NCBI RefSeq assembly: GCF_009914755.1
Contig: NC_060929.1
Origin: the human T2T-CHM13v2.0 reference genome, Homo sapiens
DNA length: 64,000 bases
Reading direction: 5' to 3' (one strand)
Shown here: in pieces, positions 39,922 to 64,000 of the stretch
Layout: the number at the start of each line of letters is the position of its first letter
Position numbering within the stretch: position 1 is the stretch's first letter
Position numbers and translations under genes: made by a program
The notes under the pieces: generated by a model
The model's input: the letters and a program-made list of their open reading frames with translations, nothing else
Databases searched by the model: none
What the model was told of the DNA's origin: nothing

Positions 39922-40095
39922 GCAGATATCTTATTCCTTTGGTAGTCCCCAGGGCCTACCTAGCTCAAGAATTTACTAAATGCTTGTAAAATATAAGAAT
40001 AAATGGAACTGGGTAAAAGCAGCTCGTACAGAGACGTCCAGCCATTTCAGAAGTGTGAAGGTTCAGAGCAGCCGGCCCTGAGCAGAACCTGGGGC

Positions 40096-40385
40096 ACAGC
40101 ACTTCCGGGTTAGGGTCAGGGTCAGGGTCAGGGTTAGGGTCAGGGTAAGGGTCAGGGTACAGCACTTCCGGGTTAGGGTCAGGGTTAGGGTCAGGGTACA
40201 GCACTTCCGGGTTAGGGTCAGGGTTAGGGTCAGGGTCAGGGTACAGCACTTCCGGGTTAGGGTCAGGGTCAGGGTCAGGGTTAGGGTCAGGGTCAGGGTC
40301 AGGGTACAGCACTTCCGGGTCAGGGTCAGGGTCAGGGTCAGGGTCAGGGTTAGGGTCAGGGTCAGGGTCAGGGTACAGCATTTCC
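40096..40385 (+). repeat. Composite interstitial telomere-variant minisatellite [ACAGCACTTCC(GGGTYA)nGGGT] x5 plus one degenerate spacer
   Basis: cagcacttccggg at 40097, 40160, 40199, 40244, 40307 and cagcatttcc at 40376; spacings 63, 39, 45, 63, 69 = 15+6n; filler is mainly TCAGGG and TTAGGG (one TAAGGG), G-strand on +. Confidence 0.95.
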
Positions 40386-40619
40386 AGCGCTGCCAGCGGC
40401 CTCCTTGCTTATGGTGCATGTTCTAACCCTCACAAACCACAAGCTTGTCTTTAAAAACATCAAGTTGAAATAAACCACATATTAATTGAGGTAAAATAAG
40501 TGGCCAGAGAACCCACATAATTTAGTTGCAGTAAACTTCTGCTGCATATTTAAAGGAAAATAAACGAAATAATAGTTTTCAAAACATAAAAATTATTCCA
40601 CTCTTTCTGAAAACACACT

Positions 40620-41270
40620 GCTAATCTAAGCCTAACCAAAAAGCTAACCCTAACCCTACCACTAACCCTAATGCTACCACTAGCCTCTAACCCTACTGCT
40701 AACTCTAACACCTAACCCTAATCCCAAACCCCTAAACCAAACCCTAGTCCTGAACCCTAACCCTAACCCCAACCCAAACCCCAATACCGACACTACACTA
40801 ATCATAACCCAACCCTAACTCTAACCGCAAAACCCTAACCCCTGACCCTAAACCCAACCCCAACCCAAAACCTAACTCTAACCCCTGAACCAAACCCTAA
40901 AACCCCACAAACCCCAAAAATATTCCAAACCGAACCTCACCCTAACCATAAATCCCAACCCTAACCCTAACCCTAAAATCTATCCCCTAACCCCAACTTT
41001 AACCCTAACCCTAATCCATAAACCTAACCCTTAACCCCGACCCCGCCCAAACCACAACCCCAGCCCCAAGCCTAGCGCCAGCCATCACCCTAACCCCTAA
41101 CCCGAACCCCTACCCTAACCCCTTCCCTAACTCTAACTTTAACCCTAACCCCATACCCCTACCCCTAAACCCTAACCCCAATTCCAACCCCAACCCTAAC
41201 TGTAACCCTAACACTTACCCGTGACCCTAACTTCAACCCTAACCCTGACTTTAACGCTAAGCTCAAACCC
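40620..41270 (-). repeat. Degenerate interstitial telomeric sequence, (CCCTAA)n-like
   Basis: ~650 bp of ccctaa/cccaaa/ctctaa/ccccaa hexamers, heavily diverged, same orientation as the terminal telomere. Confidence 0.93.
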
Positions 41271-42440
41271 TCACTCGCCCGGGTGCTCATTTCCACACCC
41301 ACTCCGGTGCCGGGTCTCGCCTCTATCCACCTTGTCCCTCGTCCGTGCCCCCGCTCACTCCGGCGCCCGGCTGCTGCCCCACCCGCTTCGGTGCTTGTGC
41401 CCTCACCTACCCTGGCGCCAGGACCGCCTCTGCTGACTGCGCGCTGAGACTCATGCTGTCTCCGGGTCCCCGGAACTCCGCGGAGTCCGGTTAACTCCAA
41501 CGCCTAATCCTAATTCCAAACCTGGGGATGCCCGGGGCCCGGCGTCTTCATCCCGCTGGGCACTGGGCCGGGGAAGCTGACCCGGCGACCTCAGCTGCCC
41601 GGTTCCCGGGGACCTGCCCGATCCAGGGCCCCCGCGGCGAGAGATGGGCGGTGGCGGCGCGGCGCTGCAGGACGCAGTCTCCCCCGGCCTCGCCCTCTCC
41701 GTCCCGGCGGGGCCGTAGTATCCCCGCGGAGGCTCGGAGGGGCCGGCCTGGGTGGGGCATCTCCCTGGTCTGCAGTTCTGGTTGTTTTTTTGTGGCTCCA
41801 TGGTAAGCACCCCACTGATCTTATATCTTCCCCCCTTTTCCTGAAAGTCTGTTTTTTCATCCTTCCTTCCTTTTCATCATCTCCCGTTTTCAAAACGGCT
41901 CTTAAACCATGCGCAATGCGTTAATGTTAAGTCGTCATTTCCATCTACTCAATGACAACGTTTTATCACGTGTTGTTCTGACTTCCATTTTTGTTGTGTA
42001 TTTGGTTCCTTGTTCTTTTTCTTTTCTTCCTGGGCTGGTTCCTCGTTCACTCTTTCTAGGTATGAGTGAACGGTTCCTTCCGGCTTGTCTAAATCTTCCA
42101 TCTTTCGGGGTGGGTGGTGCTGAGCGGGCTCCAGGTGTGCGCCCTGCTCCTGCGAGGCGTGTGAGCGCTTATCGCACCCATGGCCCCTGCGCGCCTCTGT
42201 CCTGCCGGGTTCCCGCAGAGGCGCCTGGTCCACACGCTGTTTCTCCCTCTTCGCCTCCTCTCTAGCCCAGACTCCGGAGCAGGTCCCGGCTGCGTCTCCC
42301 ACGTCTGGGTGTAGACCCGCGGTGTGGGCAGCCCTTCCTTTCGCTGCAGCCGAGTCTCCGCTATTACCGTTCAAGTTGTCCCTGGGTGGATTCTGAAAGG
42401 ACAAGGGGGAAACGGCCCGCTCTACTCCATGGCGGGTCAC
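41270..42440. promoter_or_regulatory. CpG island 1, directly centromeric to the ITS
   Basis: Dense CpG and high GC in 41270-41760 and 42100-42440; residual telomere-like hexamers at ~41490-41525. Confidence 0.75.
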
Positions 42441-42789
42441 TGACCTTCTGTTACATTTTATTTTACGTTGCCTTTGGCAGTTTTGAAACTGACCAATCCT
42501 TTTTGGAAATAAGAGAAGGTATAAAACCAAAAATGTTTTTTCAGTTCCTTTCTGAAAATGTGCTCGTTTTGGAGCCACTTGTGAGGACAAAGAGTTTGGA
42601 AAATTTAAGTGTCTCTACTTCTTCACTGTGTTTTGCTAACAAGAATGAAAAAAAAAGCATTAAAAATGGCCTTAATAAACGTCTTTCAACCTCAAACAGG
42701 ACTATGTTATCAGGTAAACTATGTTATTTTCAACAAATCTTAAGTTCCTACCGCAATGGAGAGACTTTAGGTCCGTAAAGAGCAGTTGA

Positions 42790-43069
42790 GGCCGGGCACG
42801 GTGGCTCACACCTGTAATCCCAGCACTTTGGGAGGCCGAGGTGGGCGGATCACCTGAGGTCAGGAATTCAAGACCAGCCCGACCAACATAGTGAAACCCC
42901 GTCTCTACTAAGAATACAAAAATTAGCTGGACTTGGTGGCACACGCCTGTAATCCCAGTTACTCAGGAGGCTGAGGCAGGAGCATCGCTTGAACCAGGAG
43001 GCACAGGTTGCAGTGAGTGGAGACGGCGCCACCGCACTCCAGCCTGGGCAACAGAATGAGACTCAGTCT

Positions 43070-43107
<38 letters not shown>
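42790..43107 (+). mobile_element. Full-length Alu (AluS-like) with 37-nt pure A tail
   Basis: Complete Alu; A run 43071-43107; gcagttga on both flanks. Confidence 0.95.
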
Positions 43108-43108
<1 letters not shown>

Positions 43109-43142
43109 CAGGCAGTTGAAACGCTTCCTCGGCAAGAAATAG

Positions 43143-43463
<321 letters not shown>

Positions 43464-43479
43464 TAAACACCAGGAAGCC

Positions 43480-45950
43480 TGGCCCTAGCACTACTGCGCC
43501 TCCACCTCAGCCCCCACTCCACCCGCACAGGTGAGGGTGCTCCGGAAAGGCTCCTGGGGCCCGGCTTCTTCATCTCCAGCCTCCGCACCTGGCGGAGGGA
43601 AGGGCTCGCCCCTAACCTGAGGTCAGAACTTGTTCGGGACCGCCGGGTGGAGACAAGGACGCGGGAACAAAACGTATGTGTGTGTTGGGGGGTGTTGCTG
43701 CGAGAGCGGGCAAGGGCGGGGACGCCGCGCTGACCCGGTCCTGGATCCCACCCGCGCTGGGCTCAGGGCCGCGGGTTCGGGTCCTGCCGGGCGTCCCACG
43801 CACCGGGGACGGGCACGAAACCGTCCACCTGCCTCAGACCTCGGCTGACCTCTGGGCCGCGGGAGGGCCCGAGGGTCTTTTCCGCCTCTGCTCGCTGTTG
43901 TGTCTCCAAGGTCAGAATCCCTGCGGCCGGGGCTGCGCAAAACGCCCCCCACCCCCGCCTCACTGCCGCCCCCGAGTCCCCTTCTCAGGCAGGCTGTGGG
44001 GGTTGGGGTTGGGCTTCGCGAGCCCAAGCGGACGCCGCAAAGAGAATGAGAACCTCGGAGCGCTCGGGGCGGGCGGGCCCAGCCCAGGCTCTTCCTACCC
44101 CTGCGGGGGTCCGAGGGCCAGCGGCATCGGCGGCGGGAGGAGGGGGCGGGGGCGGGGAATTAGGGGGAGGCGGGTGTTAAAGAGGAGAAGGGCGGGGGCG
44201 GAGGGGGAGGAGGAGACGGGGCGGGGAGGACCCCCAGGTTTCCGAGTCTCCGCCCGGGCTTTCGTTCCCGGCTGTGTGGCCCCGCGCGGTTCCCGAGCAG
44301 CTCCAGGAACTGAAACGTGAAGGGGACCTCGGTGCCCGGAGCTGCTGCCCAGGTAACCGCGCTGCGCCCGGCGAGCAGATGGGGGGTAGTCGCCCCAGTC
44401 CTGGACTCCGCGAGGGGGCGCGGGGAGTCCACGCTGCGGCCGCGCAGACGGGCGGGGCGGTTCGTTCCTGCGAGCGCCGGAACCGGGGAGGAGGCTGGGG
44501 AAGAGAAAGGGGCAGAGGGGCGGGCCCGGGGGCCGGGGCCGAGGGGGCGGAGCGCGAAGTTTCCAGAGGGAGGATTTGAGCTGCTGAGACCGGGGGCGGC
44601 GCCTGGGGACGCCGGAGATCCGCTGCTCCCCGGGACACTCACCTGCTGCCCGGCGCTGCGGGAGGAGAGCGCGGAACCGGGAGCCCTGGAACCCTGGCCC
44701 GACTGCTGAGCGCCCCGTGGGTCCTACGCTCCCGCGCCTTCTAGGGAAGCCCCTAAAGTTGGTGAGTCCCCTAGAAAGCAGTTCCTCTGTGGCTACGTCC
44801 AGGACGAACAACCAAAAACCGCCCCAGCCCCCCAAACCCCAATTGCCTTATTCTGTTTCCACTTGCTTTAGCCCCCACGCTCCTGTGTGCGAGAGGGGCC
44901 TGGTCAGACTGCAGACCCCACCCAGGAGGAGGAAGAGGAAGGGGCCGCCGTGGCCCGGGCACCCCCAGGGTAATGGAAGTCAGGTCCATATGAATATTGC
45001 AGAACGTGAAGGGCCAGGCAGCGCCCCCCACCGCCGGGCCCACGGGCAGCCCCTCATCTGCAACCCCTCATATTCATAGGCAGCCCCTCGTGTTCACAGG
45101 CACGCCCCTCATATGCAGTCCTTCATGGCCTGACATCTGTGGGGAAGTCTCTGCCCACACCTAACACCTAAGCCTCTCAGGTAGGAGGGGCAACTTGTGC
45201 GGGGGTCGCTGGGAGGTGGGGGGCATCAACTCTGGAAGAGACCACAGCTCTGGCCAGGACCAGGGTCGCCTCCCGGCCACTTCCGGCTTCTGGGAGATTT
45301 CCTTTTCCTTGCAACTGGGGTGGGAGTGGACAGATGACCGTCCCTAGGCCTGTGCTTCAAACCCGAAGCCATGCTTCTGTGCAAATGAGGCTCCTGGGCC
45401 ACATGAACTCCTGTGCAAAGGCCTGGAAAATTAACACTTTGAACAAAGTCAGACATGTTTGAGCATTTGTGGCGAGTTTCAGTTGCCAGGGGCCCCAGGG
45501 AAGGCTGGACTGCGGCTTGTCTGGCCTCCCCCGCCTCCCTATGGCTTCTGTAGGCGATGTGACTGAATCACAAAACGTAGGCATCTTGCAGTGCCGTGTA
45601 AGGAAATGTAAGTACCGTGAACAGTTTCCAGCATGTAATGCGCGAAAAGCCGGGCGTCCACGCCGGTGTTACCGGGGAAGGGTCAGTCACTGCAACCCCG
45701 GCATTGCGCCCGCTGTTCCCAGGACGGCCATGTCAGCCCGAGGACCTGCGTCTGCACTGGCTGTTGGTTGGGGCTGTGAGGGGCCTAAGGTTGCCTGGGG
45801 ATTGGAAACGCAAGGGCGTTTTGGAGGCTTGGCACACTGGGGGCCTGGAGTCGGGGCAGAGGCTCTCCAGGAGCTCCCTGTGGCTCCGGAGCAGCAAGTG
45901 GCCTGGTCTTCTGCCAGGCACAGTTGGGCATTCCCAGCCCGCCCACGTGG
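43480..45950. promoter_or_regulatory. CpG island 2, promoter-like, no associated CDS
   Basis: Very high GC/CpG with a core at 43700-44750; multiple GGGGCGGGG boxes (~44141-44230); ETS motif cacttccgg at ~45278; consensus donor CAG|GTGAGT on - at 44637-44645. Confidence 0.8.
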
Positions 45951-48625
45951 ACTCAATCTTTCTTCTTGTATTTGCTTTCTTCTGAGCTGTGTATCCTGAG
46001 TTTTTGTTGTTTGTTTTTGCTTTACCTGCATTCGTTTTCTGTTCTTTCTAATTCTGCATGCTTTTTGCACACTGGTGCTTTCTGCAGAAGGGGATGGGGG
46101 TGAGAGGTTTTGTGTGGATTGCGTCTGAGGCAAGGTGCCCACAGAGCATGCACATCAGGACAGATCTGTGAGGAGGGACAGGGTCAGAGCGTGGGGTGTG
46201 GAGCTCTTGACCCTGGGGACTGCCAGTGTTTGTGTGGGTTGTGTGAGTGTGCTTGTGGGGCAGTGTATCTTATGGGGTGTGTTGCAGTGTGAGGTGAGTG
46301 AGGTCAGAGGGGGTTGGGGGTGACGCTTTTGAATCTTGAGACCTTCTCTCAACCCAGAGCTAACAATTTTATCACCGAAAGATAATCTCCTGATGACACT
46401 GTGTATTTGTGAGTGATGTCACATGGGGGAAATGGCACCTGCCGCTCTGCGCCCTGTCTCTCTCCGGAAACGGCGCGTCAGGGGTGTCATTTCCATGACA
46501 GTAAATGTAGATATACGTTGTTGTTTTTCATGTTTACATAGACGAATTTGGGTATTTACTAAAAATGATTAACACCTACTTCCCTCTGTTGGTGGAATTT
46601 TAGGGTGTTTTATTTTACATTCAATGGAATTTCTAAGGAATATTAGTATATCTTATAAAGAAAAGATATAAATAATTTTAGGACAAGTGATAACAGGCAG
46701 TCCAAAAGCCAACAGGATGACAGATTGTCTCTGGTTCAGTTAGTTCCTCTATGTAAGTGTTAGAAGCAAAGACTGTGCATTTCACCCTTAATTCTAAATA
46801 TGATAAAAGGAGAGAATTTGCAGTGATTTGATTATTACAATAAAATGTACTGAAGTGACAGTTGACAAGCAAAAGGGGACCAACCACTCTGTATTGCCCA
46901 GACAAATTCCAGTTAGATTCGACACACATACACAGAGACACGCACACTTCCCCATGGAAAACAGGTCCCTTAGAAACAATAAACTACAAGAGGGCCTGGG
47001 ACTTCCAGGATGACTGAGTGAGGAACTTGGCAAATTCTCTTCCCCAAAAGCAACCACAAAGCTGAACAGAATTTTCAAAAACAGTCATTTCAGAATTCTG
47101 GAAATGGACTAAAGGCTTGCAAGAAACTGAGAGGCATTGAAACCCTTGGCAAGAACAGTGGGAGCCTCTGGCATTTCAGCGGGGACTGCTCCTGTCTCCC
47201 CAGGTCCATGGCATGGTAGCACTAGAGGGGAAGACAAGCCACCAGGAGAGCTGACTTGATTTGGGGGAGAGTGTGGAAAAGTCCATGGCCAGCTGTTGTC
47301 AGTAACAGGAGAGTATCGGTGGCAGACCGCCAAGGAAGGTCAGCGTCAAGGCTGCTTGAGGTCATGCTGCTCTTTCGGGCAAGCAACAGACCAGTAGATC
47401 AGGTAGAAATTCAAAGCAGCAGCAACCCTGTTCTCCAGTGGTTCTGGGAAGCTGGGAAAAAGCACAAGGCTTCATGCAGCCTCAGGGGAAAGCGATATTT
47501 TGTTATGGTGGCCCTAGATAACTAACATCATGTTTCAGCACGACCTCTGACTCACCACTGGCATGGGCAGATTCAGAAGAAGACTCAGACTGAATAGGGC
47601 TTCCCCTAGACTGTAAGCAGAACAGAGGTGGGGGCTGGGTCTGAGCTGTTTCTCTCTGTATACGCAACACCCTCACAGAATCCAGCACACAGAAGCTGTC
47701 CTGTAAATATCAGATGGACAGATAAACAGGTGAGGCACGGACTAGCTGGAGGATCTGCCCACATCAGGACCTTGGAGAGCTCCAGTCCTCAAGATGGGAA
47801 CTCTCTCTGCTCAGGACTCCAGTGGCTTAAAGGTCTTTCTCAGATCAGCTTTGCCCTCTTTTTTGACTGAGCCTGAAATTCGATACTTTTACCTAAGGTA
47901 GAGGTCACAAGGAGCTTAGTTTCAGGAGTCGTGAAAAGATGGTAGGCCCAGAACGTGTAAGTATATGGCAGGACTTTGGGATCCCCATGGATAATCTCAA
48001 TGCCTCAGACTCCAATAGGGTTTGATATTTATGGCATCCATATTGATATTTCTCCCATGTAGGAGCCCTCAAGCTGTTTCAAAACAGATGGATAGATGCA
48101 ACATTTGTGCATGTAAGGGCATCATGAGAAACTAAATTATGACATGGTTTGAATTAGGTAGGAAATGGACAATTTTGTGAATAACTTATTAAAAATAAAA
48201 TGATGATTCCAATACCATTGGATAAGAATCTCTAAAACATAACTAAGTTATATAAACTGCTAGCCAGATGGTGGAGCCAGGAGGGGCAAGCGCCGGCACC
48301 TTCATGTCTTTTGAACAAGGAAGGTGGTGCCTGCCAGGTAGGAGAGCCCTGCCTCCTCCCAGAAACCCCCACAGCCTTCATCCCACTTGGTCCTACTGTT
48401 CTTACCTGTTGCCCTCTCCATATCTCTTCTTGTTCAGCTTGGTCCATCTCTCTCTGGACTTGCTCCCCATCTCTGTCTCCCTAGTAACTCTTTCCTGTCC
48501 ATGTCTGAGAGTCCCTTGGAGAGAAGGCAGCTCCACCTTCTACAAGTGGTCCCTGAAATGCCCTCATCCCTACCTGCCCCAGTTCCCTTGTCGGTATATA
48601 AAAATATCTTTACAGTAAAGAACAG

Positions 48626-48752
48626 AGCACACTCAGCCCCCTGGTTGTTTGATGTCCTGCACAGCCTCAGGACTTTGCAGGGAGTCTCCACCAAGAAGAA
48701 GGCCCTCACCAGATTTGGTCTCTCAACGTTGGACTTCTCAGCCTCCACAACT
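48626..48752 (+). mobile_element. MaLR LTR segment (MLT1A/MSTC-like) forming the 5' end of the SPIC retrocopy
   Basis: agcacactcagcccc...caggactttgcagggagtctccaccaagaagaaggccctcaccaga...ttggacttctcagcctccacaact matches the post-TATA part of the LTR and stops where the consensus continues GT(A/G)AG. Confidence 0.75.
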
Positions 48753-48784
48753 AATTGTACTAATCATCAGTTTATTCATGAAGC

Positions 48785-49508
48785 ATGACTTGGATTGAAC
48801 AAGATAAGCTGGGTCAAGCATTTGAAGACGCTTTTGAGGTACTGAGGCAACATCCAACTTTAGATCCTCAGAACTCCCCTGATGACAAAAATTACCTGTC
48901 TTTCATTAACTGTTGTCTTCATATCAGAGGAAATTCCAGCTGCTATGAGTGTTGCCTACGGAGGAACCTGTCTACAATTGGAGAACTGTAATAGCAGGAC
49001 TGTGGACTTCTATTTTGAAGGAAATATTCATCAACCTCTGCAGAGCATAACTGAAAACCAGCTGGTACAACCTGCTCTTCTCCAGCAAGAGGAAGAAAAG
49101 GCAGGAAGAGGCTCTGGCTATTGAATACCTTCACAAATCCCTGTGTACTGAGATGGCATCTTGTATTCACTGGGAAGATAAAACCAAAGACACCTTTCAG
49201 TTTGTAACAAAAAACCAGGAAACTTCTGAACTTTGGGGGAAGAGAAAAAGCAACCAGAGTACCATGACTTTCCAGAAATGGCCAGGGCACTGAGGAGCTG
49301 TGGAAGAACTGGGGAAATCACCGAAACCCAGTACCATTTCAGTGAGGCCATTCTCCAAAAACTCTCTCCATCTTATTTCTTGGGGAAAGAGTTCTTCTAC
49401 TTACAATATGATCAACCTGATTAAGAATATATTGGTTTCTATAACTGTGATGCAGATTATAACTATACAAATGCCAATTACCAGAAGCTAAGCCACCCTG
49501 ATTCCAAA
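48785..49508 (+). pseudogene. Processed pseudogene of SPIC (Spi-C ETS transcription factor); probably the annotated SPICP1
   Basis: ORF fragments [23 protein letters not shown]..., [23 protein letters not shown] and [15 protein letters not shown]...[18 protein letters not shown] match SPIC end to end in ~720 intronless bp; several frameshifts, an ETS-domain deletion and an in-frame TAA at 49422; 3' UTR-like similarity continues to about 49590. Confidence 0.92.
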
Positions 49509-50475
49509 ATATAGTCTCACATTTCATGGTTTCCTGGTATCAGAAATCCCTATGAGCCTGAGATTTTTTCCCTTAAAGCAAATACTGAAGATAAGAAACC
49601 AATTAATTTCATTGTTGCTATCTTGTATCCAATGGCATAAAATCTATACTAACTTGATTAGAAATTCTGCCAATGAACAACTTTATTGTTTTGAGTGATG
49701 AAGCCCCATTTGAGAATATAGGCTCAATGGCCTTGCTCTTAACTGTTCTCTATGCAGTCACTTTCTTCTGCACTAAAGTGCCAATACAGATACTGAATAC
49801 ATTGATTTAAATACATAGATATATAAATAGATATTTAAATATGCAATATATATGGATACTTTATATATTGATTTAAACATTTTCCTCTCATAGATGAAAA
49901 ATCACTCTAACATGTATTGATGGCTTCACAAGAAATCATTTACAGAAAATAATTGCATATGATACAGTGTTTGTGCCAAAATGTATTCATGGCTTTAAAA
50001 ACTTCAGTGGAAATGTCTATTCAGATCCCTAGCCCATTGTTAAATTGGTTTCTGTTTTCTTGCTAAGTTTGAGCTGCTTATAGATGATGGATATTGACCC
50101 CTTATAGATGTTGGATATTGACCCCTTGTGGATGTATGGCCGGTGCTTTTCCCAGTATTTAGGTCATCTCTGCACACTGTTGATTGTTTCCTTTGCTGGG
50201 TAGAAGTTTTTTGGTTTGATGTAATCCTATTTGTTTAGTTTTACTTTTGTTGCTTGCACTTTTGGTGTTAAGTCCAAAAGAAAATTGCAAACACCAATGT
50301 CGTGTAATTTTTACTCTCTGTTTTCTTCTGGTAGTTTTAGAGCAAGTTTATCCAACCTGTGGTCTGTGGGCTGCATGCAGCCCAGGACAGCTTTGAATGT
50401 GGCTCAACACAAATATGTAAACTTTCTTAAACATTATGAGATTTTTTTGGTGATTTTTTTTTAGCTTATCAGCTA

Positions 50476-50478
<3 letters not shown>

Positions 50479-50524
<46 letters not shown>
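50479..50524. repeat. (GT)n microsatellite
   Basis: About 22 GT units between the MER30 left half and the Alu tail. Confidence 0.97.
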
Positions 50525-56972
<6,448 letters not shown>

Positions 56973-57821
56973 TGTTAGTATATTTTATGTGTGGCCCAAG
57001 ACAATTCTTCTTCCAATGTGGCTCAGAGAAGCCAAACAAGTGGACACCCGTTTTAGAGTTTCTAGTGTTATGTTACAGTCTTTGGTCCATTTTAAGTTGA
57101 TTTTTGAATACAGTGTGAGATAGGGGTCCACTTTCATTCTTCTGCATGTTTTCCCAGCATCATTTATTGAAGAGACTGTCCTTGTCTTCTTGGCACCGTT
57201 GTTGAAATCAGTTAACTGTACATGCATGAGTTCATTTCTAGGCTCTCTGTTCAGTTCCACTGGTTAACGTGTCTGTTTTTTCTTCTTTTTTTTTTTGGTC
57301 AATTTTATGCTATTTTAATTACTATGGCTTTGGAGTGTACTTTGAGGTCAGGTGGTGTGATACTTAACAGCTTTGTTCTTATTGCTCTTGGTTGTCCTGG
57401 CTATTCATGGTTTTATGAGGTTCTATATGAATTTTTTGATTACTATTTTTTATTTCTATGAAACAGACATTGGGATCTTGTTAAGGATTACATTGAAACT
57501 GTTGGTTGCTTTGGGTACTATGGACTTCTTAACCATATTAATTATCCAATCCATGAATATGGGATATCTTTCTATTTATTTGTGTCATCTTCAATTTATT
57601 TCCCCAATGTTTTATAGTTTTCATTGGCAGGTCTTTCACATCCTGGGTTAAATTTATTCCTAGGTAATTTGTTAAAGCTATTATGAGTGGGATTGTTCTC
57701 TTGATTTCTTTTTCAGATAGTTCATTGTCAGTATATAGAGAGACTACTGATTTTTGTGTGTTGATTTTGAGTCCTTCAGCTTTACTGTACTTGTTTATAA
57801 GTTCTGAGAGTGTTTTTGTGA

Positions 57822-60252
<2,431 letters not shown>

Positions 60253-60700
60253 GGTGGAGTCTGAGTTTTCCACATATAGGATCACTTTGTCAGTAAACAA
60301 TGGCAGTTTCACTCACTCTTTTCTTATGTGGATGTCTTTTGGTTTTTTCCATGCCTGATTACCCCAGCAAGGACTTCCATTTATATTAATATATTGCATG
60401 GATGTAGCAAGAGTGGGCATCCTTGTCTTGTTTCAGATCCTTGAGGAAAGGCTTTCAGTTTTTCAACACTGAATATAATGTTGGCTCTGGACTTCTTATA
60501 AATGGTCTTTATTGTGTTGAGGTACATTCTTTCTATTTTTAATTTGGTGAGTTTTTAAAAGGAGGGAATGTTCAGCTTTATCAAATGCCTTTTCTGTGTC
60601 TGATGGGGTAATCATATGATTTTTGTTTTTCATTCTATTGGTGTAATATATCATATTTGCTGATTTGCATATGTTGAACCATCCTTGCATCCCAAGGATA

Positions 60701-61690
60701 AAGACATTTCTCAAAAGAAGACATAAAAATGGCCAACATATATAAGAAGAAAATGCTTGACACGACTGTCATTAGAAAATGCAAATTCAGACAACAATGA
60801 GATATCATATCTCACCTGTCAGAATGCCTTTTATCAAGAAGATGAAAGACAAGTGTTGGCAAGGATGTGGAGAAAAGGGAACTCTTACACATTTGGTGGA
60901 AATATAACTTAGTACAGCCATTATGGAAAATAGTATGGAGGTTCCTCAAAAAACTAAAAATAAGCCATTGCACTCCAGCCTGGGCAACAGAGAGAGACCT
61001 CGTCTCAACAACAACAAAACCTAAAAACAGAATTACCCTATGATCCAGCAGTCCCACTTCTGGTTATTTACCCAAAAGATGTGAAATCAGTTTGTCAAAC
61101 AGATGTCTGCACTCCAGTGTTTACTGAAGCACTATTCAAAATAGCCAAGTCATAGAATCAAAAATAGCAGCAGATGAAATGGATAATGAAAATGTGCATA
61201 TACATCATTGAAGACTTTTCTCCCTTAAAAAAGAAGAAAATTCTTACATTTATGATGACACGGATGTAACTGGAGAACATTATGTCAAATGAAATGAGCC
61301 AGGAATGGAAAGAGAAATACCACATGTTCTCACTTACATGTGGAATCTGAAACAATTGGACTTATAGAGGCAAAGAGCAGACTGATGGTTACAACAGTTT
61401 AGGGGATGGGAAGATGATTGTCAAAGTACAAAATCTCAGAAAGAATACATATGTTTTTCTTTTTTGATTTAGATTGCATAGTGTGGTGAATCTAGTTAAT
61501 AACAGAGTATTACACATTTAAAAATTGCTAAGAAAGTAAATTTCAAGTGTGCTTAACACAAAAAATGTTAAGTATTTGAGGTGCTGGATATGTTAACCAG
61601 CTTGATTTAATTATGTCACATTGTATTCATAAATTACAACATCATTTTACACCTCATACATTTACACCGTTTTTTAAATTAAAAAAATAA
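60701..61690 (+). mobile_element. Sense 3' portion of the same old L1 (L1MA-like) with A-rich end
   Basis: Starts agacatttctcaaaagaagacat (RHFSKED), runs through the ORF2 end and an L1MA-type 3' UTR to aaattaaaaaaataacaaaa. Confidence 0.85.
60963..61016 (+). mobile_element. Severely 5'-truncated Alu (~50 bp)
   Basis: gccattgcactccagcctgggcaacagag...tctc plus AAC tail, flanked by aaaa(a/c)ctaaaaa(t/c)a. Confidence 0.75.
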
Positions 61691-63274
61691 CAAAAGGACA
61701 AAGATCACAGTTGCAAAGAGGTAAAAAGGCATAAAACCAAGTCACAAAAGTAGTAGAAACATCCAGCAATTATATGAATTGAGTGTTCCGAGGACTTCAG
61801 ATAGGCAGCTTTTTCTTTCCTTCCCAGGGCCTGGCTCCTTTCAGAGTTCCAGCCTCTCGAGTGATTTCTCCAGAGCCCACTCAGTGACACCTCTTATTTG
61901 ACGCATGCCTCTGCCTGTATATTCTGTGACCAAACAGGGTTTTACTTGTGTTTGGTTTATTTCAGATGCAAAAGAGAGCTTGGCATATATGCCTGGGAAG
62001 TGGAAATGTTGGAAATTCTGGGCCTCTGAAATAAGGATTGCTCAGAAAGTCGGTATTTTTTCCCACAACCAGAGGAACCACAGCTAACTGGCCCTTCTCT
62101 ATCCAGACAGGACTGGTCCTATGTGGATTTTAGTGGCTGTTTTGGACCCCTCTGAGTCAAGGGCAGGAGGCCCTTCCCCCGGTCACATTGGCCTTTCCAG
62201 GCCCTTCTCCTGCCCTGTGTCCTGTGGTGTGACAGTGATGACCATGTCCCTTTTGGAGCAAGTGTTGTGAGCTCAGGGATGGATTCAGGCTCAGCTTTGA
62301 GATACTCAGCACAGGCTTTTAAAACCCACTCTGTCCTGGTAACATCACTTATGTATTCGGGCCTGGAGGAGCCTCAAGATTGCAGAGGTGAAATGTTTTG
62401 TATTTTTTGTGTAATTTGTGCCATAAAGAACCACCAGGGTCTGAACGTCATAGCAAGAGGCAGAGTTCCTGATTCTCTGGGAATGTTGTTCTTAGGATGG
62501 TTTACAGAAACACTTGCTGGAGGCAAGTAATTTCATCTGGCTATTTCAACGTGGTGAAGGACACAGCATTATTTTTAGACAACACCAGGTGCCATTAGCA
62601 AACTGTATTTGCGTTAATCTTTTCCGCAGTGGGTGGGGATGGCCAGATGCACCCGGCTTCTGACTTACTCTTATGTCAGACTCACTTGGGGGGCTCTGAT
62701 GCTTGGGAACAGAGATGGGCCTGGGACATAGGAGCCACTCCTTGTCCAGAATATTAAGTTCCCACCTTCAAGGGACTTTCTGAATTGGTAAATATGAAGC
62801 ACCATGAAAAAAACGAATAGAAACATTTTCACATCTACTTAAGCTATAACTGGGAGCCACAGTGATGTGCTGCTGAGGCGAATCACCCCTTTGATTGCAG
62901 TGCAGCCGTCTTTACAGCAGCCGACCGTGTCCGGACACCCAGTGTCTCTGTGCTCCGAGGCTGGGGAAAATAGGGTGCACCCAGCAAGTCCAAGTGGAGT
63001 CCACCTTTGCCTCTCCACCAGGCATTGCAGAAAACCTGCCGTGAGGCTGCTGCGCTGCCTGCCTGCATGGCCTAGTTCTCCCCCAGACTAAGCAGATTCC
63101 TTCAGTGCCATGTGCAGCAGAGAGGGAAGGTGGTGAGACGCGGGCTATGAAGCTGCTCAGTGCAGCTCTCGAGTCTCGTCCCACCCCACAGCTGCTGTCT
63201 GGTGGTGCGGCTCCAGCATGAGGGGCTGGTGTGAATCCCATGTCTCCATCAAGTTGAGTCCCAACCCCCATTCC

Positions 63275-64000
63275 CCAGGAGGCCCTGAAACATAAGCGGC
63301 CGGGTCTCACTCACTGTCCACTCCCCGGAGGCCCTGGGACACAGCAGGCCGGGTCCCACTCACTGTCCACTCCCCGGAGGCCCTGGAACACAGGAGGCCG
63401 GGTCCCACTCACTGTCCTCTCCCCGGAGGCCCTGGAACACAGGAGGCCGGGTCCCACTCACTGTCCACTCCCCAGAGGCCCTGGAACACAGGAGGCCGGG
63501 TCTCACTCACTGTCCTCTCCCCGGAGGCCCTGGGACACAGCAGGCCGGGTCCCACTCACTGTCCTCTCCCCGGAGGCCCTGGGACACAGCAAGCCGGGTC
63601 CCACTCACTGTCCACTCCCCAGAGGCCCTGGAACACAGGAGGCCGGGTCCCACTCACTATCCACTCCCCGGAGGCCCTGGAACACAGCAGGCCGGGTCTC
63701 ACTCACTGTCCACTCCCCGGAGGCCCTTGAACACAGCAGGCCGGGTCCCACTCACTGTCCTCTCCCCGGAGGCCCTGGGACACAGCAGGCCGGGTCCCAC
63801 TCACTGTCCACTCCCCAGAGGCCCTGGGACACAGCAGGCCGGGTCCCACTCACTGTCCACTCCCCGGAGGCCCTGGGACACAGCAGGCCGGGTCCCACTC
63901 ACTGTCCTCTCCCCGGAGGCCCTGGAACACAGCAGGCCGGGTCCCACTCACTGTCCACTCCCCAGAGGCCCTGGAACACAGGAGGCCGGGTCCCACTCAC
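63275..64000. repeat. 49-bp GC-rich VNTR, ~15 copies, runs past the window end
   Basis: Unit ccc(g/a)gaggccctgg(g/a)acacag(c/g)aggccgggtc(c/t)cactcactgtcc(a/t)ctc; period 49 (63323, 63372, ...). Confidence 0.97.

What the first reader, a model, noticed from the sequence alone, without database searches (positions are those of the whole stretch)
48626..49600. SPIC retrocopy that appears to preserve an LTR-initiated, spliced chimeric mRNA (MaLR LTR exon 1 > SPIC)
Seen: a ~127-bp MaLR LTR segment ends at ...cagcctccacaact, 32 nt upstream of the SPIC ATG (48785) on the same strand. It has neither the LTR's promoter half nor its AATAAA-containing 3' end. The three intact MaLR LTRs in this window continue at the homologous point with a splice donor: ccagtatt|GTGAGC (6861), tgaact|GTGAGT (58327) and tgaact|GTAAGT (60170). 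Known: MaLR LTRs act as oocyte/early-embryo promoters that splice from this donor into host genes, and processed pseudogenes record germline-lineage mRNAs. Inference: the segment is exactly a TSS-to-donor LTR exon, so this pseudogene is a cDNA fossil of an LTR-driven SPIC isoform expressed in the ancestral germline or embryo. I could not identify the TSD or poly(A) of the retrocopy.
Basis: partly seen in the sequence, partly recalled or inferred. Interest (0 to 1): 0.82.

Follow-up and report, generated by a model that had tools for sequence, protein, structure and literature searches.

The report
SPIC pseudogene preserving an LTR-started mRNA
An old, dead copy of the SPIC gene on human chromosome 5 begins with a piece of a retroviral-type repeat that looks like a spliced first exon, so it probably records a repeat-driven SPIC messenger RNA from early primate germ cells or embryos.

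Summary
Window 48626-48752 is an internal piece of an MST-like MaLR LTR. A profile of 31 genomic copies matches only positions 258-386 (E 6e-42). No other part of that LTR is found on either side.

The piece starts about 28 nt after the family's TATAAG box. It ends on the last base before the family's GTAAG donor. All 31 other copies run past the 5' cut and 30 of 31 past the 3' cut.

It joins the SPIC exon that carries the ATG, within 4-5 nt of that exon's acceptor.

The retrocopy is much larger than annotated. It runs from 48626 to about 61700, is broken by two nested insertions, and ends in an A-rich remnant. The target-site duplication candidate is not significant.

One full-length, same-sense LTR of this family lies 45 kb upstream of SPIC exon 1 on chr12. 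It is not shown to be the source.

Best reading, about 0.75: a retrocopied LTR-initiated, spliced SPIC mRNA. It is a new example of two known phenomena. Interest is moderate.

The parts
48617..48625 (+). Candidate 5' target-site duplication (AAAGAACAG) in otherwise unique flank DNA
   Evidence: Resembles AAAGATCACAG at 61700-61710, just after the A-rich tail. It is not significant against A-rich controls (1930 of 4782 control 25-mers score as well). The flank 48150-48625 is single-copy in the genome.
48626..48752 (+). LTR-derived first exon: internal 127-nt piece of an MST-like MaLR LTR, from the predicted start site to the base before the splice donor
   Evidence: Profile of 31 copies matches positions 258-386 only, E 6.4e-42. 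The family majority has TATAAG about 28 nt upstream of the piece's first base and GTAAG right after its last base. 19 of 127 bases differ from the family majority.
48753..48787 (+). Remnant of SPIC exon 3 (5'UTR plus ATG at 48785-48787)
   Evidence: Aligns to parent exon 3, L012 9004-9049: CAACAATTG...ATG followed by gtaagc. The first 4 nt are missing, or overlap ambiguously with the last 5 nt of the LTR piece. There is also a deletion of about 7 nt.
48788..50342 (+). SPIC exons 4 to last, joined without introns (disrupted coding sequence and first part of the 3'UTR)
   Evidence: Four separate chr12 exons match contiguous window sequence at 75-91%. The ORF from the ATG stops after 68 codons. 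The parent's last exon encodes an Ets domain, PF00178, E 2.8e-26. 3'UTR colinearity with the parent runs to 50327 and with the chr4 and chr17 retrocopies to 50342.
50343..57049 (.). Later insertion block: a hAT-type short DNA transposon carrying nested (TG)n, Alu and L1 sequence
   Evidence: The same 9 nt, GTTTTAGAG, lies on both sides (50334-50342 and 57050-57058). The chr4 retrocopy has it once. The family name is from recall only.
57050..57818 (+). Continuation of the retrocopied SPIC 3'UTR (L1-derived part)
   Evidence: Colinear with the chr4 copy (73.0% over 793 nt, E 2e-125) and the chr17b copy. Other L1 copies in the window match the same chr4 stretch at 67.5-67.8%.
57822..60253 (+). 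Nested full-length THE1-like MaLR element (two LTRs and an internal part; Alu inside the 5' LTR)
   Evidence: Sequence. The two LTRs align to each other at 86.0% and 88.5%. It interrupts the colinear 3'UTR match.
60274..61664 (+). Last part of the retrocopied SPIC 3'UTR
   Evidence: Colinear with parent positions about 4120-5334 of the last exon and its downstream sequence, and with the chr4 and chr17b copies at 70-84%.
61676..61699 (+). A-rich remnant of the poly(A) tail
   Evidence: It follows the last base homologous to the parent and to the other old retrocopies, which carry A-runs at the corresponding place.
61700..61710 (+). Candidate 3' target-site duplication (AAAGATCACAG)
   Evidence: See the first part. 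Not significant. The downstream flank 61690-62250 is single-copy.

Best explanation
SPICP4 is an L1-type processed pseudogene made from a chimeric SPIC mRNA. Transcription started inside a then-young MST-like MaLR LTR upstream of SPIC, about 28 nt after its TATA box. The 127-nt LTR exon was spliced from the LTR's own GTAAG donor to the acceptor of SPIC exon 3. That exon carries the ATG and is the first constitutive acceptor, since exon 1 has none and exon 2 is optional. The mRNA therefore kept the whole SPIC reading frame.

The full-length mRNA, with a 3'UTR of about 3 kb, was reverse-transcribed and inserted at chr5 in a germline-lineage cell of an early primate. The copy then decayed. It took up a hAT transposon and a THE1-like element, and it lost 4 nt at the exon junction.

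Shown: the boundaries of the LTR piece, the absence of the rest of the LTR, the intronless SPIC structure, the full extent of the retrocopy and the nested insertions.

Inferred: the start site (from the TATA position), the splicing event, the tissue, and the identity of the source LTR.
For: 1. The LTR piece matches profile positions 258-386 only. No other LTR part appears within 40000-54000 or 61500-64000 at E<=10.
2. The family majority has TATAAG about 28 nt before the first base of the piece and GTAAG right after the last base.
3. 31 of 31 other copies pass the 5' cut and 30 of 31 pass the 3' cut.
4. The SPIC side begins at exon 3, which in the parent reads ...ttcttcaag|CAACAATTG...ATG|gtaagc.
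5. Four other SPIC retrocopies carry exon 1, with or without exon 2, in the same place. The 5' end of this gene's retrocopies therefore records real isoforms: exon 1+2+3 twice, and exon 1 plus an inner acceptor of exon 3 twice.
6. Both flanks are single-copy DNA.
7. Ages fit. K2P between retrocopy and parent 3'UTR is 0.16-0.27, so about half of that per lineage. The piece differs from the family majority at 19 of 127 bases. The LTR was therefore only slightly older than the retrocopy.
8. One full-length, same-strand LTR of this family lies 45 kb upstream of SPIC exon 1, at C12:101390413-101390883. No other sense copy scoring comparably was found in the about 80 kb of chr12 fetched, from C12:101376000 to 101456000 with small gaps.
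9. MaLR LTRs supply a promoter, start site and a donor near their 3' end, but no acceptor, in oocytes and zygotes (PMC5538554, passages).
10. SPIC marks the inner cell mass in human and macaque (bioRxiv 10.1101/318329, passages).
Against: - The junction is not exact. Four nt of exon 3 (CAAC) are missing, or under another alignment the last 5 nt of the LTR exon are missing and a T is added.
- The target-site duplication candidate is no better than chance in this A-rich context, so the 5' end of the insertion is not independently fixed.
- The chr12 LTR is only 3rd of 31 copies in rarity-weighted shared non-majority bases with the window piece. Today its TATA-like motif and its donor dinucleotide both differ from the family majority.
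- The start site is inferred from the TATA position, not measured.
- No RNA or cross-species data were available.
Confidence: 0.75

Rival explanations
1. Chance neighbourhood. An ordinary 5'-truncated SPIC retrocopy landed beside, or inside, an LTR fragment that was already at chr5.
For: LTR fragments are common, and retrocopies are often 5'-truncated. The target-site duplication that would fix the 5' end is not significant.
Against: - No other part of the LTR lies on either side of the retrocopy.
- The fragment would have to be cut beforehand at the predicted start site.
- The insertion would have to fall exactly at the donor, and the cDNA would have to be truncated at an exon start.
- None of the 31 other copies is cut at both points.
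Confidence: 0.07
2. Template switching by the L1 reverse transcriptase. After copying SPIC mRNA, the enzyme jumped to an unrelated LTR-derived RNA, giving a two-part retrocopy that never existed as one mRNA.
For: Such two-part retrocopies are known (recalled). Template switching is described for retrocopies in PMC5470649 (passages). A possible 4-5 nt overlap (CAAC/CAACT) at the junction could serve as microhomology.
Against: A switch point has no reason to coincide with the LTR's donor on one side and an exon start on the other. SPIC would need an mRNA beginning at exon 3, which none of the four other retrocopies shows.
Confidence: 0.07
3. In-situ LTR plus later deletions. A solo LTR stood upstream of the retrocopy ('pseudogene recycling'), and deletions later removed its promoter half, its 3' end and the retrocopy's first exons.
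For: LTRs next to processed pseudogenes that drive them are documented (PMC5538554, passages). This pseudogene has many indels.
Against: It needs two deletions with four breakpoints at the start site, the donor and an exon start. LTR-mediated retroposition, with LTR on both sides, is also excluded because no LTR lies at the 3' end.
Confidence: 0.04
4. The mechanism is the same, but the LTR promoter was not the chr12 copy found here. It was either another LTR that has since been lost from the SPIC region, or an LTR beside an older SPIC copy.
For: The chr12 LTR is not distinguished from other copies by shared rare bases (3rd of 31).
Against: It is the only full-length sense copy of the family in the roughly 80 kb of chr12 examined. 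It shares with the window piece a base, A at 48663, that none of the other 30 copies has.
Confidence: 0.3

Closest known systems
MaLR LTR-initiated chimeric host-gene transcripts of mammalian oocytes and early embryos (Franke et al. 2017, PMC5538554, passages read; Peaston et al. 2004, recalled)
   Same: The LTR gives the promoter, the start site and a non-coding first exon. The donor lies near the LTR's 3' end, next to the polyadenylation signal. It splices into the first available host acceptor.
   Different: Here the transcript is inferred only from a DNA copy tens of millions of years old. The LTR is a primate MST-like type and the host gene is SPIC. No RNA evidence was seen, and no paper found links SPIC with a MaLR LTR.
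Processed pseudogenes as fossils of past transcript isoforms (Shemesh et al. 2006; title seen only in the reference list of PMC5470649; content recalled; the paper was not held)
   Same: An intronless copy preserves an exon combination of the parent gene. The five SPIC retrocopies record three different 5' structures.
   Different: The preserved isoform starts in a transposable element rather than in a genic exon.
Pseudogene recycling by LTRs (Franke et al. 2017, PMC5538554, passages)
   Same: A MaLR LTR sequence sits directly 5' of a processed pseudogene, on the same strand.
   Different: Recycling needs a promoter-bearing LTR at the pseudogene locus. Here the promoter half is absent, and the piece has the boundaries of an exon.
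Chimeric retrocopies by reverse-transcriptase template switching, and LTR-mediated retroposition (as described in PMC5470649, passages)
   Same: Two unrelated transcribed sequences are joined in one retrocopy.
   Different: The junction lies at splice sites. There is no LTR at the 3' end, and there is an A-rich tail instead.

Membership tests
L1-type processed pseudogene | Exons of a multi-exon parent joined without introns, at a different locus | tested here: met
   Four chr12 exons, separated there by 2-3.5 kb, match contiguous window sequence. The exon 3 remnant lies just upstream.
L1-type processed pseudogene | Poly(A) tail at the 3' end of the copied mRNA | tested here: met
   An A-rich stretch at 61676-61699 follows the last base homologous to the parent and to two other old retrocopies. 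It is degraded, so the support is moderate.
L1-type processed pseudogene | Target-site duplication flanking the insertion | tested here: inconclusive
   The candidate pair AAAGAACAG / AAAGATCACAG is no better than A-rich controls.
LTR-initiated chimeric transcript (MaLR LTR as alternative promoter and first exon) | The LTR part begins at the LTR's transcription start site | tested here: inconclusive
   It begins about 28 nt after the family's TATAAG, the usual distance by general knowledge. The start site itself was not measured.
LTR-initiated chimeric transcript (MaLR LTR as alternative promoter and first exon) | The LTR part ends at the LTR's splice donor | tested here: met
   Its last base is the one before GTAAG in the family majority and before GT in most of the 31 copies. 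The donor's position near the 3' end of MaLR LTRs is stated in PMC5538554.
LTR-initiated chimeric transcript (MaLR LTR as alternative promoter and first exon) | Joined to a genuine acceptor of the host gene | tested here: met
   It joins the start of SPIC exon 3, within 4-5 nt. The small gap is attributed to later decay.
LTR-initiated chimeric transcript (MaLR LTR as alternative promoter and first exon) | A sense-oriented LTR of that family upstream of the host gene, identifiable as the source | tested here: inconclusive
   One full-length sense copy lies 45 kb upstream. The shared-rare-base test ranks it 3rd of 31.
LTR-initiated chimeric transcript (MaLR LTR as alternative promoter and first exon) | RNA evidence for the junction | not testable with these tools
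   No expression data were at hand.
LTR-mediated retroposition | Retrocopy flanked by LTR sequence on both sides | tested here: not met
   0 profile hits at E<=10 in 61500-64000.
Pseudogene recycling by an in-situ LTR | Promoter-bearing LTR present at the pseudogene locus | tested here: not met
   Profile positions 1-257 are absent from 40000-48625 at E<=10.

The most novel reading that the evidence does not exclude
The MST-like LTR 45 kb upstream of SPIC on chr12 was, in early primates, a germline or early-embryo promoter of the full SPIC protein. SPIC's expression in the primate inner cell mass may have begun, or been reinforced, through this LTR before the canonical promoter took over. The isoform may still be used in primates whose copy keeps its TATA box and donor.
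Probability: 0.15. Interest if true: 0.6.

Novelty: new member of a known kind. Interest (0 to 1): 0.45.

Why it matters
Retrocopies can form only from RNAs present in the germline lineage. This one is therefore direct DNA evidence that a MaLR LTR drove a complete SPIC mRNA in germ cells or early embryos of an early primate. SPIC is a transcription factor reported as an inner-cell-mass marker in human and macaque.

The finding gives a dated, testable example of LTR promoter use, and probable later loss, for a developmental regulator. It shows that the 5' ends of old pseudogenes can be mined for extinct TE-driven isoforms.

It also corrects the extent of SPICP4. The annotated 0.9 kb is the start of a retrocopy of about 3.9 kb spread over 13 kb.

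Tried and rejected
1. Target-site duplication. A local alignment of the 25-nt 5' flank with the sequence after the tail scored 17. That score was reached by 1227 of 20000 random window 25-mers, 1930 of 4782 A-rich 25-mers and 1607 of 5000 shuffles. It is not usable.

2. Hidden LTR homology next to the piece.
- 48540-48625 against the 5' part of the LTR: 818 of 2000 shuffles score as well.
- 48753-48800 against the 3' part: 1704 of 2000 shuffles score as well.
- No hidden LTR homology was found.

3. Source LTR by diagnostic bases.
- The window piece and the chr12 LTR share 5 of the piece's 19 non-majority bases, including one found in no other of the 30 copies. Even so, the chr12 LTR ranks only 3rd of 31.
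- A genome pattern count for that base (113 hits, against 140 for the usual forms) was misleading. 0 of 20 fetched pattern hits belong to the LTR family.

4. The idea that the retrocopy ends at 50342 without a tail is rejected. It resumes at 57050 and again at 60274.

5. The idea that the 3' end of the LTR lies beyond the retrocopy's true end is rejected.

6. Literature.
- 20 papers hold SPIC, LTR and 'chimeric transcript'. I read passages of one, which uses SPIC only as a marker.
- nothing relevant beyond PMC5538554.
- none of the 15 listed papers holds SPIC together with an MST, THE1 or MLT1A name.
- SPICP4 occurs in one expression list only.
- I found no description of an LTR-SPIC transcript in these searches. 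Supplementary tables of oocyte and embryo LTR studies were not examined and could hold one.

8. The subfamily of the LTR (MSTD, MSTC, MSTB or other) could not be named without a repeat library.

Full report
**What is at the coordinates**

The window is human chr5:1-64000. From 48785 a decayed SPIC reading frame starts (68 codons, then a stop). Four exons that lie 2-3.5 kb apart on chr12 match contiguous window sequence at 75-91%. The last chr12 exon encodes an Ets domain (PF00178, E 2.8e-26). This is therefore a processed pseudogene of SPIC, as RefSeq's SPICP4 label says.

Directly upstream, 48626-48752 matches many dispersed genomic copies of one LTR family at 77-89%.

**The LTR piece**

I fetched 31 genomic copies with their flanks, aligned them and built a profile. 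By its ends and overall look the family is an MST-like MaLR LTR. The subfamily cannot be named without a repeat library.

- The profile matches the window only at 48625-48753, profile positions 258-386, E 6.4e-42.
- Nothing else matches in 44000-54000 at E<=10, nor in 40000-48625 or 61500-64000.
- In the family alignment the majority sequence has a TATAAG box about 28 nt before the first base of the piece. A GTAAG follows directly after its last base, next to the AATAAA signal.
- All 31 genomic copies continue at least 18 nt beyond the 5' cut, and 30 of 31 continue at least 20 nt beyond the 3' cut. The window piece is the only one bounded at both.
- The sequence just outside the piece shows no hidden LTR homology (818 of 2000 and 1704 of 2000 shuffles score as well).
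- The upstream flank 48150-48625 is single-copy in the genome.

**The SPIC side of the junction**

Mapping the 5' ends of four other SPIC retrocopies onto chr12 gives the parent structure:
- exon 1 ends at L012 6692 (donor gtaaca);
- exon 2 is optional (L012 about 7534-7642);
- exon 3 is 46 nt (L012 9004-9049), reading CAACAATTG...ATG and followed by gtaagc;
- the next exon begins at L012 9699.

The ATG is thus the last three bases of exon 3.

The five retrocopies record three 5' structures:
- the chr11 and one chr17 copy carry exons 1+2+3;
- the chr4 and the other chr17 copy carry exon 1 joined to an inner acceptor of exon 3;
- the window copy carries the LTR piece joined to exon 3.

The window reads ...CTCCACAACT|AATTGTACTAATCATCAG...ATG. 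Compared with LTR donor plus exon 3, four bases (CAAC) are missing. Under another alignment the last five LTR bases are missing and a T is added. About 7 nt are also deleted further inside exon 3. The junction is therefore within 4-5 nt of both splice sites, in a pseudogene that is about 25% diverged and rich in indels.

Exon 3 is what an upstream promoter would be expected to splice to. Exon 1 has no acceptor, and exon 2 is skipped in two retrocopies.

**True extent of the retrocopy**

- Colinear homology to the parent's long, partly L1-derived 3'UTR and to the other old retrocopies runs to 50342.
- It resumes at 57050-57818 and again at 60274-61664. There it matches at 70-84%, while other L1 copies in the window match the same chr4 stretch at 67.5-67.8%.
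- The first gap is a hAT-type short DNA transposon (name by recall) with later (TG)n, Alu and L1 insertions. The same 9 nt, GTTTTAGAG, lies on both sides, and the chr4 retrocopy has it once.
- The second gap is a full-length THE1-like element whose two LTRs are 86.0% and 88.5% alike.
- After 61664 comes an A-rich remnant (61676-61699), where the chr4 and chr17b copies have A-runs.
- A candidate target-site duplication, AAAGAACAG at 48617-48625 and AAAGATCACAG at 61700-61710, abuts both ends but is not significant in this A-rich setting.
- The downstream flank is single-copy.

**Ages**

- K2P between retrocopy and parent 3'UTR segments is 0.16-0.27, about half of that per lineage.
- The LTR piece differs from the family majority at 19 of 127 bases, within the range of the genomic copies (9-22). 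The LTR was therefore only a little older than the retrocopy, as expected for an active promoter.
- The nested THE1-like element is younger (LTR pair 86-88%).
- MST families are primate-specific, and THE1 and late MST types are simian-specific (PMC10735291, passages). This places the event in early primate evolution, if the family is indeed MST.

**Source LTR**

I fetched about 80 kb of chr12, from 101376000 to 101456000 with small gaps.
- The profile finds one full-length copy on the SPIC strand, at C12:101390413-101390883, 45 kb upstream of exon 1 (score 454).
- A weaker, split sense match lies further upstream.
- Its homologous stretch is 77% identical to the window piece, like the rest of the retrocopy against its parent.
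- It shares 5 of the piece's 19 non-majority bases, one of them seen in none of the other 30 copies. Its rarity-weighted score is nevertheless only 3rd of 31.
- Its TATA-like motif and donor dinucleotide today differ from the family majority.

It is a reasonable candidate, not a demonstrated source.

**Interpretation**

Three separate coincidences fit one event: a start about 28 nt after the TATA box, an end at the donor, and a junction at the start of an exon. Together with the absence of any other LTR sequence, they are best explained by an mRNA that began in the LTR and was spliced to SPIC exon 3.

This is what MaLR LTRs are documented to do in oocytes and zygotes. They supply a promoter, a start site and a donor near the 3' end, but no acceptor (PMC5538554, passages). 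SPIC is reported as an inner-cell-mass marker in human and macaque (bioRxiv 10.1101/318329, passages). That fits the gene having left five retrocopies.

Each rival needs several unrelated breakpoints to fall on these special positions. The rivals are chance neighbourhood, reverse-transcriptase template switching, and an in-situ LTR trimmed by deletions. LTR-mediated retroposition and in-situ 'pseudogene recycling' fail a defining feature. I put the chimeric-mRNA reading at about 0.75.

**Novelty**

Both ingredients are known: LTR-initiated host transcripts, and pseudogenes as transcript fossils. The searches I ran found no report of an LTR-SPIC transcript or of the structure of SPICP4. Supplementary tables were not examined. 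This is a new, well-preserved example with a corrected annotation, of moderate interest.

Noticed in passing
window 48762-49656 versus 48626-61710: RefSeq's SPICP4 span covers only the first 0.9 kb. The retrocopy is about 3.9 kb of SPIC cDNA spread over 13 kb by two nested insertion blocks.
   Followed up: yes
window 50334-50342 and 57050-57058: An identical 9-nt duplication, GTTTTAGAG, flanks a hAT-type short DNA transposon. That transposon was itself later split by (TG)n, an Alu and about 3 kb of L1. This gives a clean nesting order for relative dating.
   Followed up: partly
window 57822-60253: A full-length THE1-like MaLR element (LTR pair 86-88% identical, Alu inside the 5' LTR) is inserted in the retrocopy's 3'UTR. 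A MaLR-started retrocopy was thus later hit by a younger MaLR.
   Followed up: partly
L012 6600-9049 (C12:101435600-101438048) with L002, L003, L004, L007: The five human SPIC retrocopies record three different 5' structures. One uses an inner acceptor inside exon 3 (acag|AAT...), seen in the chr4 and one chr17 copy.
   Followed up: partly
L005+L014 (C12 last exon and downstream), positions about 2700-3016 and 4069-4250 of the joined stretch: The parent's 3'UTR holds an Alu that is absent from all retrocopies, including the 94%-identical chr11 copy. It also holds a (TTTC)n-type microsatellite where the old retrocopies continue in L1-derived sequence. Both are later changes in the parent.
   Followed up: no
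window 48625: A single G precedes the first LTR-homologous base, where the family majority has T. It could be flank DNA or an untemplated cap-derived G of a full-length cDNA. This is undecidable here.
   Followed up: no
genome-wide, pattern: The 16-mer CTGCACAGCCTYRGGA occurs 113 times in the genome with 0 control hits, yet 0 of 20 sampled sites belong to the LTR family. It must be part of another, unidentified repeat family.
   Followed up: partly
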